Part shown: one piece after another, positions 31,153-45,359 of the stretch | How the letters are laid out: each line of letters begins with the position of its first letter | Position numbering within the stretch: the stretch's first letter is position 1 | Assembly: GCA_017886765.1 (NCBI GenBank) | Contig: JAGHJI010000064.1 | Location: 24-64,023 of the forward strand | DNA from: Eubacterium sp. | GTDB taxonomy: Bacteria; Bacillota; Clostridia; Oscillospirales; Acutalibacteraceae | Reading direction: 5' to 3' | DNA: 64,000 bases | Program-made: the position numbers and the translations under genes | Notes under the pieces: generated by a model | Databases searched by the model: none | What the model saw: only the letters and a program-made list of their open reading frames with translations | Told to the model about the DNA's origin: nothing

Positions 31153-31926
31153 TCAGAATTTCCTTGCCATAAAAAACAAGCGGTTGAAGCGGAAAATCAC
31201 TTCCCCGTTTTTCTGCAGACGATATTCTTTTTTCACCTGTACAAGAATATCCTGCTCAAACTCTTTTTTCTCCGTATCATCCAGCACCTCAAGATAGGGC
31301 TTTAATCCTGTTGATCTGTACCACTCAATAATACTTTCCTGCGAGGGAAGCCGGTGAAAATAAATTGTTTTCCACATTGAAAAATCGGCGGATATATTGG
31401 AAAGCAGGTCGAAATATTCTTCCTCCGTCAAATTATTGAATTTTCTTTCGTTCTGAAATTTACCGTCCCATTTGGCGGTTTTTATAACACGGTCAACGAT
31501 ACTGTTAATGGGCATTTCAGCCTGATTGGGCACCTGTACCGCTAAAACTCCGCCGGGATTCAGAATATTCATCATATTTTTCAAAAGGCTTTTATGATTG
31601 GGAATCCACTGAATACAGGCATTGGAGAATACGATATCAAATTTCCCCTGCAATTTATCAAAATCTTTTGTTGCGTCAAAAAGGATAAAATCCATATCCG
31701 GATGATCCTTTCTCGCCTTTTCTATCATATTCGGTGAAAAATCAGCGCCGATAATATCCGCATGGGGAAAACGCTTTTTCAGAACAGACGTACTGTTACC
31801 CGGTCCGCAGCCTATGTCAATGATTCGTTTTGGGTTGTCAAGATCAATCCGGTTTGCCAAATCGACGGAAGGCTGTGTCCGCTCTTTCTTAAATTTAAGA
31901 TACTGTGTTGAATTCCAGTCGCTCAT
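31153..31926 (-). CDS. Class I SAM-dependent methyltransferase, trans-aconitate 2-methyltransferase (Tam)-like
   Basis: MSDWNSTQYLKFKKERTQPSVDL, IDIGCGPGNST, FSNACIQW and LNPGGVLAVQ. The real start is ATG 31926; the track extension to 32058 runs through repeat R2. Confidence 0.85.
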   Translation of the reverse strand: MSDWNSTQYLKFKKERTQPSVDLANRIDLDNPKRIIDIGCGPGNSTSVLKKRFPHADIIGADFSPNMIEKARKDHPDMDFILFDATKDFDKLQGKFDIVFSNACIQWIPNHKSLLKNMMNILNPGGVLAVQVPNQAEMPINSIVDRVIKTAKWDGKFQNERKFNNLTEEEYFDLLSNISADFSMWKTIYFHRLPSQESIIEWYRSTGLKPYLEVLDDTEKKEFEQDILVQVKKEYRLQKNGEVIFRFNRLFFMARKF

Positions 31927-32099
31927 ATAAATTCCCATAGCCTTTCCGGCTACAAATAGTATTATTAAAATTCCTAAACGCCCTATTGTAGCCGGATAAG
32001 GCGTATAATGGGAATTTAGCCATCTCAAAATTATGCCGCAGGCAAATTTTGAGGGCAATATAATCGCATATCGTGTGATTTTTCACACGAATACACTCC
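31927..32099 (-). repeat. Structured 173-nt leader element R2, copy 1
   Basis: Near-identical to 38316-38488; abuts the start codon. Confidence 0.9.
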
Positions 32100-32131
32100 A
32101 AAAAAATGCCGGAAACGCTGATGATTTCCGG
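32100..32131 (-). terminator. Terminator of the leu operon
   Basis: Minus strand GCCGGAAA-TCATCAGCG-TTTCCGGC followed by ATTTTTTT. Confidence 0.75.
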
Positions 32132-32143
32132 CTGTTTATCTTT

Positions 32144-35604: not shown

Positions 35605-35860
35605 AAAAAATAAGCCCCTATACATCAAAATAGTATAGGGACGTAATTCTCTACGTGGTACCACCCTATTTCAGCAGACGAATCTGCCCTTTAGCATCCA
35701 ACAATGCCTTTGCCGATAACGCAGCAACACGGCTGTTCCTATTCATTTCTATTCAGAACAGCAACTCCGCAGAGAGCTATACACTTGATAATACGTATTG
35801 ACTCGCACCTGCCGTCAACTCTCTTAAACTGAATTATAAAGTCTTTTTCTGCTTCATCGT
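35605..35860 (-). promoter_or_regulatory. T-box riboswitch (probably leucine, CUC specifier)
   Basis: Minus strand: AGAGAG and GGTGCGAG stem I motifs, candidate CTC specifier at 35774-35776, T-box AATAGGGTGGTACCACG (35654-35670), terminator CCCTATAC...GTATAGGG plus T tract. Confidence 0.9.
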
Positions 35861-35891
35861 TTTTATTCGGGTACTATTAAATTGTATAATC

Positions 35892-37784: not shown

Positions 37785-38315
37785 TTATTTTACAAACCTT
37801 TTCAACCGGTTCACAAGCACTGCCGCAAGGACGATTTTGACCGCGTCAGGCAGAAGAAACGGGATAACGCAGGTGGAAAGCGCCGATACAAAAGAGACCT
37901 TATAAGCGATGACAAACCACACGGTGCCGAACAGATAACATACCAAAATACCTATAACCATAAAGACAACATTCTGCCAGATCTTTCTACCGACTTTTTC
38001 AACCGCAAAGCCCACAATCAAAGCCGTGAAAATGAAACCCACGATATAGCCGCCGGTAGGTCCTGTTACCGCGGCAAGTCCGCTGTTAAAGCCCGTAAAT
38101 ACAGGCAGCCCGATTATGCCCAAAAGTATATAAACTATCGTTGTAAGCGTTGCCCGTTTCCATCCTAAAAGGCCTGCTGTAAGGCAGACAGCAAAAGTCT
38201 GCAGCGTTACCGAAACGGTCAGCGGTATGGCAATCCATGCGCAGACGGCGATAAGCGCCGCAAACAGTCCTATGTAAACCAGATCAATCGTTTTAAATGT
38301 TCTTCTTTCACGCAT
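37785..38315 (-). CDS. bioY: Biotin ECF S-component BioY
   Basis: VTLQTFAV, YILLGIIGLPVF, GPTGGYIVGF and PFLLPDAVK; real ATG at 38315; BirA-like operator upstream. Confidence 0.93.
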   Translation of the reverse strand: MRERRTFKTIDLVYIGLFAALIAVCAWIAIPLTVSVTLQTFAVCLTAGLLGWKRATLTTIVYILLGIIGLPVFTGFNSGLAAVTGPTGGYIVGFIFTALIVGFAVEKVGRKIWQNVVFMVIGILVCYLFGTVWFVIAYKVSFVSALSTCVIPFLLPDAVKIVLAAVLVNRLKRFVK

Positions 38316-38488
38316 AATAATTCCCATAGCCTTTCCGGCTACAAATAATTTATTAAAAAATTCCTAACGCCCTATTGTAGCCGGATAAGGCGTATAATGG
38401 GAATTTAGACATCTCAAAATTATGCCACAGGCAAATTTTGAGGTCATTACAATCGAATATAGTGTAAATTTTCACACTATATTCCTCC
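38316..38488 (-). repeat. Structured 173-nt leader element R2, copy 2
   Basis: Near-identical to 31927-32099; lies between the bioY promoter and the bioY ATG. Confidence 0.9.
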
Positions 38489-38503: not shown

Positions 38504-38532
38504 ATTATGGCACCGATTGTTCAGATTGTCAA
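38504..38532 (-). promoter_or_regulatory. SigA promoter of bioY
   Basis: TTGACA-17 nt-CATAAT on the minus strand. Confidence 0.75.
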
Positions 38533-45131: not shown

Positions 45132-45345
45132 AAAAAAATCACCCTGAAAAATCAGGGTGAATAAAATCCACGGTCCCACCTGAATTATACTGAAAACAGT
45201 ATCACTCATTGCCTTTTAACGCGGGCGGCGTCCTGTCATTTCCTACAGGCTCTCAAAGGCGGTAATCTGCTTTTCATACTGCGCGCTTGCACCGTCCGCG
45301 CGCTCTCTGCAAGCTGTAAAAGCAAATCATGTCCTTATCATCAAT
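45132..45345 (-). promoter_or_regulatory. T-box riboswitch (threonine, ACC specifier)
   Basis: Minus strand: AGAGAG...GGTGCAAG, ACC at 45261-45263, T-box AATTCAGGTGGGACCGTGG (45168-45186), terminator TCACCCTGA...TCAGGGTGA plus T tract. Confidence 0.9.
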
Positions 45346-45359
45346 TTTATGTTTATAAT

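What the first reader, a model, noticed from the sequence alone, without database searches (positions are those of the whole stretch)
31927..32099. R2: candidate undescribed portable promoter plus translational RNA switch in front of two unrelated genes (second copy 38316-38488)
Two 173-nt near-identical copies each end in GGGAAT-N4-ATG at the start of a Tam-like methyltransferase and of bioY. Read on the minus strand there are four parts. (a) A hairpin with a compensatory change, TCGTGTGA/TCACACGA versus TAGTGTGA/TTACACTA (C-G to A-T). (b) A palindrome CTCAAAATT...AATTTTGAG overlapping a promoter-like TTGCCC-17-CATAAT (32030-32058; the bioY copy has ATGACC and an extended -10). (c) A ~95-nt region with two mutually exclusive folds: AATTCCCAT...GCCTT.TCCGGCTACAA pairing with TTGTAGCCGGA.AAGGC.ATGGGAATT buries the RBS, whereas AAATTCC/GGAATTT plus CGCCTTA/TAGGGCG frees it. 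(d) Copy 1 begins immediately after the leu terminator, so it would be the only promoter for the methyltransferase. I do not recognise it as a known riboswitch. The alternative is a Correia-like MITE that donates promoter and RBS; both copies also carry a GGAG at their far edge, as if inserted between an old SD and the ATG.
Basis: partly seen in the sequence, partly recalled or inferred. Interest (0 to 1): 0.8.

Follow-up and report, generated by a model that had tools for sequence, protein, structure and literature searches.

The report
Mobile hairpin element splitting ribosome-binding sites
The two repeats belong to a family of about 165-bp mobile DNA inserts in one genus of uncultured gut Clostridia that sit between a gene's ribosome-binding site and its start codon and carry a replacement ribosome-binding site inside a foldable RNA hairpin.

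Summary
This genome has 9 copies. I found about 140 more in related genomes, all but one within one genus.

- **Position.** 136 of 138 unique copies end within 3 nt of the start of an ORF, in the gene's orientation. Random positions do so 7.8% of the time. The downstream genes are unrelated.
- **Insertion.** The bioY copy is a discrete 161-162-bp insert. Conspecific strains with about 99% identical flanks read GGAGG[A/T]CATTATTATG, an intact Shine-Dalgarno (SD), spacer and ATG. The element therefore lies inside the SD-to-ATG spacer, and the host SD stays at its 5' edge.
- **Known families.** No Rfam family matches.
- **Structure.** All three hairpins show compensatory changes.
- **Energetics.** The SD-masking fold is about 20 kcal/mol more stable than the fold that frees the SD.
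- **Mobilisation.** There are no terminal inverted repeats and no clear target duplication. No transposase could be linked; Y1/RAYT-like and GIY-YIG were tested.
- **Promoter.** The promoter-like box scores 9 of 12 and is lost in divergent subfamilies.

The RNA-switch reading is plausible but unproven, and nothing points to a ligand. The closest known analogue is the Neisseria REP2 repeat.

The parts
31930..32095 (-). Element copy 1, about 166 bp, between the old SD and the methyltransferase start
   Evidence: Present in all four metagenome runs laid on it and in three Logan contigs.
32096..32099 (-). Host Shine-Dalgarno (GGAG) left at the 5' edge of copy 1
   Evidence: An SD-like tetramer ends 1-8 nt upstream of the hairpin-a core in 94 of 107 copies, against 22 of 107 in a control window.
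32100..32132 (-). leuB intrinsic terminator directly upstream of copy 1
32069..32093 (-). Hairpin a of copy 1 (TATTCGTGTGA-AAAA-TCACACGATA). It contains the conserved GTG 5-9 nt after the host SD.
   Evidence: helix 2: 89% of cells paired, 7 of 9 pairs with changes on both sides..
32024..32053 (-). Hairpin b of copy 1 (CTCAAAATTTGCC...GGCATAATTTTGAG). It overlaps the promoter-like TTGCCC (32058-32053) and CATAAT (32035-32030).
   Evidence: helix 3: 93% paired, 7 of 12 pairs with changes on both sides; 9 of 12 promoter match.
31986..32017 (-). 5' arm of hairpin c, the anti-SD-like arm (AAATTCCCAT..CGCCTTAT.CCGGCTACAA)
31968..31986 (-). Partner of the 5' arm in the alternative fold B (ATAGGGCG..AGGAATTT)
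   Evidence: inner helix 87.5% paired; the pair at columns 121-137 is GC in 39 copies and AU in 36..
31929..31955 (-). 3' arm of hairpin c. It holds the invariant GAAAGGCTATG (31946-31936) and the SD-like GGGAAT (31936-31931), 4 nt before the ATG.
31153..31926 (-). SAM-dependent methyltransferase gene served by copy 1
38322..38482 (-). Element copy 2, 161-162 bp. It is a strain-specific insert in the bioY SD-to-ATG spacer.
   Evidence: contigs of three runs skip 38322-38482, with 1-2 letters in between; ten empty-site contigs.
38484..38488 (-). Host bioY Shine-Dalgarno (GGAGG) at the 5' edge of copy 2
   Evidence: shared by filled and empty alleles
38504..38532 (-). Native bioY promoter (TTGACA-17-CATAAT with TG) upstream of the insert
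   Evidence: 11 of 12 match
38455..38484 (-). Hairpin a of copy 2 (GAATATAGTGTGA..TTACACTATATTC). Its foot pairs with the last bases of the host SD region.
38413..38442 (-). Hairpin b of copy 2, with ATGACC (38447-38442) and CATAAT (38424-38419)
38319..38406 (-). Hairpin c of copy 2: 5' arm 38406-38375, fold-B partner 38375-38358, 3' arm 38344-38319
37785..38315 (-). bioY gene served by copy 2

Best explanation
The repeat is a non-autonomous mobile element of about 160-170 bp. It has no terminal inverted repeats and consists of three hairpins. It is confined almost entirely to one genus of uncultured gut Clostridia; carrier MAGs are deposited as Eubacterium sp., Candidatus Fimenecus sp. and similar names.

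Shown:
- It sits inside the spacer between a gene's Shine-Dalgarno sequence and its start codon, always in the gene's orientation.
- The host SD is stranded at its 5' edge.
- Its 3' end lies 0-6 nt (usually 4) before the start codon.

Inferred:
- The host gene then has to be translated from the element's own 3' end. That end carries GAAAGG...GG(G/T)(A/G)AU. Both halves are complementary to the 16S rRNA 3' tail as known for Firmicutes.
- At equilibrium this segment is paired with an anti-SD-like 5' arm in a hairpin of about -35 kcal/mol. A weaker local hairpin (fold B, about -15 kcal/mol) ties up the 5' arm and frees the 3' arm. Fold B forms first as the RNA is made.
- I therefore propose that translation starts mainly on nascent or otherwise opened transcripts. 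Opening could come from the fold-B kinetic trap. It could also come from ribosomes that load on the stranded host SD, start at the conserved GTG in hairpin a and run into the 5' arm.
- In the main subfamily a weak sigma-70-like promoter inside hairpin b may add transcription.
- The enzyme that moves the element, and the way it finds SD-to-start spacers, are unknown.
For: Copy number and range:
- 9 copies in this genome.
- 31 of 37 genomes of the genus carry it, and 0 of 24 from other families.
- A covariance model of hairpin c hits only 1 of 250 other genomes of the order.

Position:
- 136 of 138 unique copies have an ORF start within 3 nt of the expected place, against 7.8% of random positions.
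- An SD-like tetramer flanks the 5' end in 94 of 107 copies, against 22 of 107 in a control window.
- In a tandem pair the second unit starts right after ...GGTAAT of the first, with no SD between. The SD is therefore flank.

Insertion:
- bioY is empty in 10 contigs and in 3 metagenome runs, and filled in the window, L207 and run X10.
- dnaE carries the element only in this species, out of 30 genus genomes examined. Within the species it is present in all four runs.

Structure:
- 88.4% of cells are paired. 171 cells have changes on both sides, against 68.6 in shuffles (0 of 500 shuffles reach this).
- Fold B has 63 such cells against 27.4.
- G-U outnumbers A-C 93:46 in hairpin c and 166:53 in fold B. 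This places the structure on the sense strand.
- Old copies at orthologous sites in G010 and G006 have entirely rewritten stems that still pair.

Other:
- The bioY native promoter lies upstream of the insert, so the element is transcribed within the mRNA.
- The hosts include genes expected to be essential (dnaE, nadK; tpiA in G220). The hairpin therefore cannot be a full block.
Against: - No transcript data. Four RNA runs gave no coverage, so no TSS and no proof that the promoter or the RBS works.
- Only one within-species empty/filled pair was found. It cannot say whether the element was gained or lost.
- The bioY copy has no donor closer than 91.5% identity.
- No transposase is linked.
- Covariation among copies of a mobile family could reflect hairpins needed in single-stranded DNA for transposition rather than RNA function. 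Hairpins a and b show no strand bias.
- Copies are related by descent, so the shuffle controls overstate significance.
- The SD-like GGGAAT is weak, and fold A is 20 kcal/mol more stable than fold B.
- The 16S 3' end of this organism is not in the assembly.
Confidence: 0.7

Rival explanations
1. The element is purely selfish. The hairpins are single-stranded-DNA recognition structures for a transposase, in the manner of IS200/IS605-derived palindrome-associated elements or REPINs moved by a Y1/RAYT enzyme. The RBS-like 3' end only makes insertions tolerable. There is no regulatory RNA switch.
For: - No terminal inverted repeats, no clear target duplication, terminal and subterminal hairpins, and one fixed orientation.
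- Hairpin c is an inverted doublet of GTAG-headed units.
- The opposite strand of the 5' arm reads GTAGCCGGATAAGGCG. This is one base away from an E. coli K-12 REP, GTAGGCCGGATAAGGCG.
- Hairpins a and b show no G-U/A-C strand bias.
- Y1-type genes exist in the genus, including a 175-aa HUH/Y protein in this genome.
Against: - Y1 gene counts do not track element counts (rho 0.31, p 0.06 in 37 genomes; 0.16, p 0.14 in 91). Genomes with 11-13 copies have none (G012, G034).
- No element-like ends flank the Y1 genes.
- The sense-strand G-U excess in hairpin c and fold B, and fold B's own covariation, fit RNA.
- Old fixed copies keep all the hairpins.
Confidence: 0.25
2. The element is a portable promoter. 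Its main effect is to give the downstream gene a new transcription start, TTG(A/C)CC-17-CATAAT inside hairpin b. Hairpin b would then be a palindromic operator for a dimeric repressor, creating a regulon.
For: - The promoter-like site is in both window copies.
- Copy 1 follows a terminator directly.
- Half-sites CTCAAAATT and AATTTTGAG flank the spacer. Hairpin b shows no strand bias, as expected for double-stranded DNA.
- 'Putative mobile promoters' are a described phenomenon (PMC3575422).
Against: - Only 9 of 12 consensus positions match.
- Divergent subfamilies replace both hexamers and the half-site sequence but keep a hairpin through compensatory changes, e.g. CGCTCAGTTTGTCGC/GCGACAACGAGCG. 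That pattern argues for structure, not an operator or promoter sequence.
- bioY keeps a much better native promoter upstream.
- A promoter alone does not explain placement 4 nt from the ATG.
Confidence: 0.2
3. It is a stationary cis-regulatory RNA, a riboswitch or protein-binding leader conserved in front of a regulon, and not mobile.
For: - Strong conserved structure with covariation and two exclusive folds.
- Always in 5' UTRs, in the sense orientation.
- An invariant GAAAGGCTATG.
Against: - Presence/absence within a species and between species at dnaE.
- Copy number ranges from 0 to 13 per genome.
- The downstream genes are functionally unrelated.
- Copies are 85-93% identical over the whole length, loops included.
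- The host SD is stranded upstream.
- No Rfam match.
Confidence: 0.05

Closest known systems
Neisseria REP2 repeats (Parkhill 2000; Morelle 2003), as reviewed by Delihas 2011, PMC3184786 section 11; also Borrelia IR-A/IR-B
   Same: - A repeat of 120-150 bp without terminal inverted repeats.
- Internal inverted repeats that form stem-loops.
- Carries a promoter, a ribosome-binding site and a start region.
- Sits immediately upstream of many unrelated ORFs.
   Different: - Different phylum. No sequence relation was tested or is expected.
- REP2 is described as including the ATG. Here the host ATG is kept and the host SD is stranded.
- Here an empty-site allele shows insertion inside the SD-to-ATG spacer.
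- Here an SD-masking hairpin with an alternative fold is supported by covariation.
- REP2 genes are co-regulated on cell contact. No common regulation is known here.
REPINs / REP-BIME elements with RAYT transposases (Bertels and Rainey 2011, PMC3116915)
   Same: - Hairpin c is an inverted doublet of GTAG-headed units that forms a long hairpin.
- Modular mosaic build, with an optional 96-nt module.
- 16-of-17 similarity to an E. coli REP.
- Mostly vertical, lineage-restricted distribution.
   Different: - No flanking or co-varying RAYT gene.
- About 10 copies per genome, not hundreds.
- Placed in ribosome-binding sites at gene starts, not in extragenic space after genes.
- Has two additional hairpins.
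Classical bacterial MITEs that supply expression signals (Correia/NEMIS, ERIC, RUP)
   Same: Small, non-coding, multi-copy and polymorphic between strains. They can donate promoters and alter mRNA structure (PMC3575422, PMC3184786).
   Different: - No terminal inverted repeats and no target-site duplication.
- Strict orientation.
- Strict placement between SD and start codon.
SD-sequestering translational switches (RNA thermometers, riboswitch expression platforms, MS2/erm-type translational coupling); comparison from general knowledge
   Same: An anti-SD strand masks the SD and the start region. A competing upstream hairpin can free it. A possible leader ORF could open the mask.
   Different: - The switch travels on a mobile element.
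- No aptamer or ligand is evident.
- The 20 kcal/mol gap between folds is much larger than in thermometers.

Membership tests
Classical MITE (derived from a DDE insertion sequence) | Terminal inverted repeats | tested here: not met
   The ends read TAGTGTGA... and ...GGCTATGGGAATT. They are not complementary.
Classical MITE (derived from a DDE insertion sequence) | Target-site duplication | tested here: inconclusive
   In the bioY filled/empty pair, 161-162 bp replace 1-2 bases. At most an AT or AAT repeat is present. Only one clean pair was found.
Classical MITE (derived from a DDE insertion sequence) | Small, non-coding, multi-copy, with presence/absence between strains and species | tested here: met
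REPIN/RAYT system | Two REP units in inverted orientation forming a hairpin, with a GTAG head | tested here: met
   Hairpin c consists of ...CCGGCTACA / TGTAGCCGG... arms. Similarity to an E. coli REP is.
REPIN/RAYT system | A cognate RAYT (Y1) gene, usually single-copy and flanked by its REPs, co-occurring with the repeats | tested here: not met
   no significant correlation and no element ends beside the Y1 genes.
IS200/IS605-derived palindrome-associated element | Subterminal hairpins, no inverted repeats or duplication, strand-specific insertion 3' of a short target | tested here: inconclusive
   The anatomy fits: insertion follows GGAG/GAGG within 0-3 nt. No fixed tetranucleotide could be defined.
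IS200/IS605-derived palindrome-associated element | A parent insertion sequence with the same ends encoding TnpA | tested here: not met
   No element matches in ten Y1_Tnp loci or six Y1-like loci.
Start-codon elements with a small GIY-YIG (Ssn-like) nuclease parent (lead from earlier notes of this scan; Ssn family: PMC11893778) | Full-length relatives encoding a GIY-YIG nuclease of about 85-100 aa | tested here: not met
   PF01541 hits in 91 genus genomes are UvrC-sized (about 610 aa). None lies next to an element.
Riboswitch or other Rfam cis-regulatory family | Match to a curated covariance model | tested here: not met
   No hit at gathering score and only noise at E <= 10.
Riboswitch or other Rfam cis-regulatory family | Downstream genes share a pathway or ligand | tested here: not met
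   Downstream genes include a methyltransferase, BioY, NadK, DnaE, SleB, YpeB, HPF, RsmD and TpiA.
Neisseria REP2-type upstream module | No terminal inverted repeats; internal stem-loops; promoter, RBS and start region; directly upstream of ORFs | tested here: met
   This is an analogy of build, not shown homology.
Neisseria REP2-type upstream module | Sequence relationship to REP2 | not tested
   No REP2 sequence was compared.

The most novel reading that the evidence does not exclude
The element homes to translation-initiation regions by reading the Shine-Dalgarno sequence itself. This could work by pairing of its anti-SD-like bases with the SD on single-stranded DNA; candidates are the TTCC next to hairpin a, or the 16S-tail-like 5' arm. 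It then uses the captured host SD to translate a short leader that begins at its conserved GTG. That translation opens the hairpin masking its own replacement RBS. The result would be a self-contained 'insert anywhere a gene starts' cassette, moved by an enzyme class not yet linked to such elements.
Probability: 0.2. Interest if true: 0.85.

Novelty: new variant of a known kind. Interest (0 to 1): 0.62.

Why it matters
- **A rare case of position-specific insertion.** Here a mobile element's insertion site is defined by a gene-expression signal, the gap between SD and start codon, rather than by a DNA word. Genes expected to be essential, such as dnaE and nadK, tolerate it.
- **Possible consequences.** If the RNA part works as proposed, the family spreads a ready-made translational control module through a genome and rewires expression of arbitrary genes.
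- **Annotation.** Gene callers start these genes at the element's internal ATG. bioY was called with 180 residues instead of 176.
- **Assembly.** Contigs break at the repeat.
- **A testable question.** The family gives a concrete system for asking how small hairpin repeats without a visible transposase move in Firmicutes.

Tried and rejected
- **Rfam.** Searches at gathering score and at E <= 10 gave nothing.
- **Internal ATG as the true start.** I considered the ATG in GCTATGGGAAT, which is in frame in all 9 local copies. I rejected it. Many copies read ATGTGA, and spacing shifts of 1-2 nt break the frame.
- **GIY-YIG/Ssn-type parent** (a lead from earlier notes): only UvrC-sized hits.
- **IS200 or RAYT parent.** No correlation and no shared ends.
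- **Apparently truncated copies that might hide a gene-bearing parent.** They were contig ends or simply divergent full copies.
- **More empty sites.**
  - Exact-protein look-ups: six returned only filled sites or nothing. A seventh, on LeuB, returned contigs that break inside copy 1.
  - Laying metagenome contigs on copy 1, the C31 copy and the dnaE copy showed all of them filled.
- **Crossover models.** A serine-recombinase-like GG or AT core does not fit both junctions of the bioY pair and the L110/L025 pair.
- **RNA evidence.** Four RNA runs gave no coverage.
- **Leader-ORF relay.** The GTG is conserved in about 85% of copies, but the stop falls anywhere from -146 to +96. This is inconclusive.
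- **16S 3' end of this genome.** Not assembled.

Full report
**1. The observation**

On the minus strand each reads, 5' to 3':
- GGAG or GGAGG;
- a short hairpin (hairpin a);
- a palindrome (hairpin b) overlapping TTGCCC-17-CATAAT in copy 1 and ATGACC-17-CATAAT in copy 2;
- a stretch of about 95 nt that folds into one long hairpin (hairpin c);
- then GGGAAT-N4-ATG.

The ATGs start a SAM-methyltransferase (31926) and bioY (38315). The two copies are about 90% identical. Copy 1 begins right after the leuB terminator. The UTR part folds at -39.9 kcal/mol, z = -5.6.

**2. The family is large**

The genome (1.9 Mb, 44% GC, 91 contigs) holds 9 copies. All 9 end at the start codon of a gene, in that gene's orientation. 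The genes are unrelated:
- methyltransferase
- BioY
- metallophosphoesterase
- NAD kinase
- a membrane protein
- SleB-like hydrolase
- MBL-fold hydrolase
- DnaE
- YpeB

Distribution in relatives:

| Search | Result |
|---|---|
| DNA search, same genus (this genome included) | 31 of 37 genomes, 1 to 13 or more copies each |
| DNA search, other families of the order | 0 of 24 genomes |
| 18-mer GTAGCCNGAAAGGCTATG, genus | 134 hits in 42 of 91 genomes; reversed control 0 |
| Covariance model of hairpin c, order | 1 of 250 other genomes, including 14 from other genera of the same family |

The single outlier lies between pgk and tpiA and again ends at the tpiA ATG. Public records that carry the element are gut MAGs labelled Eubacterium sp., Candidatus Fimenecus sp., and Acutalibacteraceae, Oscillospiraceae or Ruminococcaceae bacterium. 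Runs that hold this genome are mostly chicken-gut metagenomes.

**3. Position**

- Across 138 unique copies with a 3' end, 136 have the start of an ORF of at least 60 aa within 3 nt of the expected place. For random positions in the same loci the figure is 215 of 2760, or 7.8%.
- At the other end, 94 of 107 copies have an SD-like tetramer ending 1-8 nt before the hairpin-a core. In a control window 40 nt upstream the figure is 22 of 107.
- In a tandem pair (L083) the second unit starts directly after ...GGTAAT of the first, with no SD between. The SD is therefore flank, not element.

**4. It is an insertion**

*bioY.* An exact-protein look-up of BioY returned ten contigs from other samples. 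Their flanks are about 99% identical to the window, and they lack the element.
- Empty allele: ...AAAACGGAGG[A/T]CATTATTATGCGT.
- Window and one further contig...AAAACGGAGGA-ATATAGTGTGA...CTATGGGA-ATTATTATGCGT.

Laying metagenome contigs on the window confirmed this independently. Three runs skip 38322-38482 with one or two letters in between. One run is filled. The unit is thus 161-162 bp. It lies inside the 8-nt spacer between the bioY SD and its ATG. No clear target duplication is visible. bioY's own strong promoter (TTGACA-17-CATAAT with TG, 38532-38504) lies upstream of the insert, so the element is part of the bioY mRNA leader.

*dnaE.* Only this species carries the element, out of 30 genus genomes examined. 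The others read AAAGGA...AATAATATG. Within the species the dnaE copy is present in all four runs. Copy 1 and the C31 copy are likewise present in all four runs.

*Other sites.* Between-species pairs at other genes show the same pattern: an ordinary SD, spacer and ATG in the empty genome. Some insertions are shared by two species and are old.

**5. Structure**

I aligned 98 non-redundant copies. All three hairpins keep pairing through compensatory changes.

| Measure | Folded as hairpins a, b, c | Fold B |
|---|---|---|
| Cells paired | 88.4% | 79% |
| Cells with changes on both sides (observed vs shuffled) | 171 vs 68.6 | 63 vs 27.4 |
| Shuffles reaching the observed count | 0 of 500 | 0 of 500 |

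- With the 3' partners slid by 1-3 columns, pairing falls to 32-48%.
- Some copies have wholly different stem sequences that still pair. Hairpin b in L037/L038 is one case. All stems of the G010/G006 orthologous copy are another.
One of its pairs is GC in 39 copies and AU in 36. That pair involves a base that is bulged in the long hairpin, so this support is independent of fold A.
- G-U outnumbers A-C 93:46 in hairpin c and 166:53 in fold B. The ratios are 65:48 in hairpin a and 31:26 in hairpin b. Hairpin c and fold B are therefore read on the sense strand, as expected for mRNA. Hairpins a and b could equally act in DNA.
- Mean energies are -34.9 kcal/mol for the full fold and -15.2 kcal/mol when the 3' arm is kept free.

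A caveat applies to all of this. Copies are related by descent, so these controls overstate significance.

**6. What the 3' end looks like**

GAAAGGCTATG is invariant in every aligned copy and in the out-of-genus hit. It is followed by GG(G/T/A)(A/G)AT, then usually 4 nt, then ATG.

From general knowledge of the Firmicute 16S 3' tail (3'-UCUUUCCUCCACUAG-5'), both GAAAGG and GGUGAU are complementary to it. The 5' arm correspondingly resembles the tail. I could not check this organism's own 16S end because it is not in the assembly.

The internal ATG is not the gene start. Many copies read ATGTGA, and spacing shifts break the frame.

**7. Most likely working**

*Shown.* This is a discrete insert in the SD-to-start spacer, in one orientation, that strands the host SD.

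*Inferred.* The gene is translated from the element's own SD-like 3' arm. That arm is masked at equilibrium by the 5' arm. Since the hosts include dnaE, nadK and tpiA, which are expected to be essential, the mask must open. There are two non-exclusive routes.
- **Kinetic route.** Fold B forms first during transcription and leaves the 3' arm free for a time.
- **Leader-ORF route.** Ribosomes load on the stranded host SD and start at the conserved GTG, which lies 5-9 nt downstream and is present in about 85% of copies. They then run into the 5' arm. This leader frame reaches the foot of hairpin c in 60 of 95 copies, against 24.6 in shuffles. Its stop is not conserved, so this remains a hypothesis.

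The promoter-like box matches 9 of 12 positions. Divergent subfamilies lose it but keep the hairpin. A promoter role is therefore possible for the main subfamily, and perhaps needed for copy 1, but it is not the family's defining function.

**8. How it moves**

This is unknown.
- There are no terminal inverted repeats and no consistent core or duplication.
- Y1/HUH genes occur in the genus, including a 175-aa one between pflB and pflA here. Their counts do not track element counts (rho 0.31, p 0.06). Their loci carry no element ends.
- Small GIY-YIG nucleases, suggested by earlier notes of this scan for other start-codon elements, are absent.
- The strain-specific bioY copy has no relative closer than 91.5% identity. 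Its 5' part is single-copy in the filled run and absent from the empty runs. The donor is unseen, and gain versus loss is undecided.

**9. Comparison with known things**

- **Neisseria REP2.** This is the closest description I found: 120-150 bp, no terminal inverted repeats, internal stem-loops, a promoter, an RBS and a start, directly upstream of unrelated genes. Borrelia IR-A/B are similar. The resemblance is one of build, not shown kinship.
- **REPINs.** Hairpin c resembles a REPIN. The opposite strand of the 5' arm is one base away from an E. coli REP. The RAYT test failed.
- **Classical MITEs.** The defining inverted repeats are missing.
- **'Putative mobile promoters'.** This is a described but mechanistically open category.
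- **Earlier notes of this scan.** They describe other families that home to start codons. One note probably describes another copy of this family between dnaK and dnaJ. I did not verify that.

**10. Verdict**

The RNA-switch idea survives as the best account of how the interrupted genes stay expressed, but without any expression data. I rate it a new variant of a known kind (a REP2-like or MITE-like upstream module). Its insertion rule, inside the ribosome-binding site, is unusual and well documented here.

Noticed in passing
window 35634-35866 (-) and 45150-45350 (-): Two T-box leaders at Rfam gathering score (124.9 and 107.5 bits). They are unrelated to the element.
   Followed up: no
G000 C63:70276-70371 (locus L006); also L129, L087, L070, L089: Some copies carry an extra 96-nt hairpin-rich module (CTCAGTTGCGGTACCCCAAATTCC...GCGAGCGGTCGCAAACGAACC). 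It is inserted exactly at the -35-like box. It occurs only inside copies of this element and only once in this genome. In L142 it sits at a different internal position.
   Followed up: partly
G000 C26:27623-28147 (-), locus L233: A 175-aa HUH/Y1 (IS200/RAYT-like) gene lies between pflB and pflA. Relatives are multi-copy and often broken in some genus genomes (13 in G006, 9 in G078). No link to the element was found.
   Followed up: partly
window 31986-32005 (+ strand) compared with E. coli K-12 NC_000913.3 25761-25795 (L232): The opposite strand of the 5' arm reads TTGTAGCCGGATAAGGCG. This is one base away from the E. coli REP GTAGGCCGGATAAGGCG. It may be chance or convergent hairpin design.
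   Followed up: partly
window 31934-31956 and 38323-38345 (-): The 3' arm can form a small local hairpin, UAGCC-GGAAA-GGCUA. From memory it resembles a shortened 16S helix 45 (GUAGCCG...GGAAGG...GGCUGGAUCACC). The resemblance was not tested, because the 16S 3' end is not in the assembly.
   Followed up: no
L217 (G220 C7:104089-104185): This is the only hit outside the genus. A shorter version carrying just the hairpin-c module lies between pgk and tpiA in another family, again ending ...GTAGCCGGAAAGGCTATGGAAATTAAAATG at the tpiA start. It could reflect horizontal transfer or an older, simpler form.
   Followed up: partly
window 38483-38484 and the empty alleles L197-L206: The two empty bioY alleles (GGAGGAC... 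and GGAGGTC...) differ exactly at the base next to the insertion point. This could be a plain SNP or an excision footprint.
   Followed up: partly
window 37785-38327: Gene callers start bioY at the element's internal ATG, giving 180 aa (MGII + BioY). Empty-site strains give 176 aa. The same artefact is likely for most genes carrying the element.
   Followed up: yes
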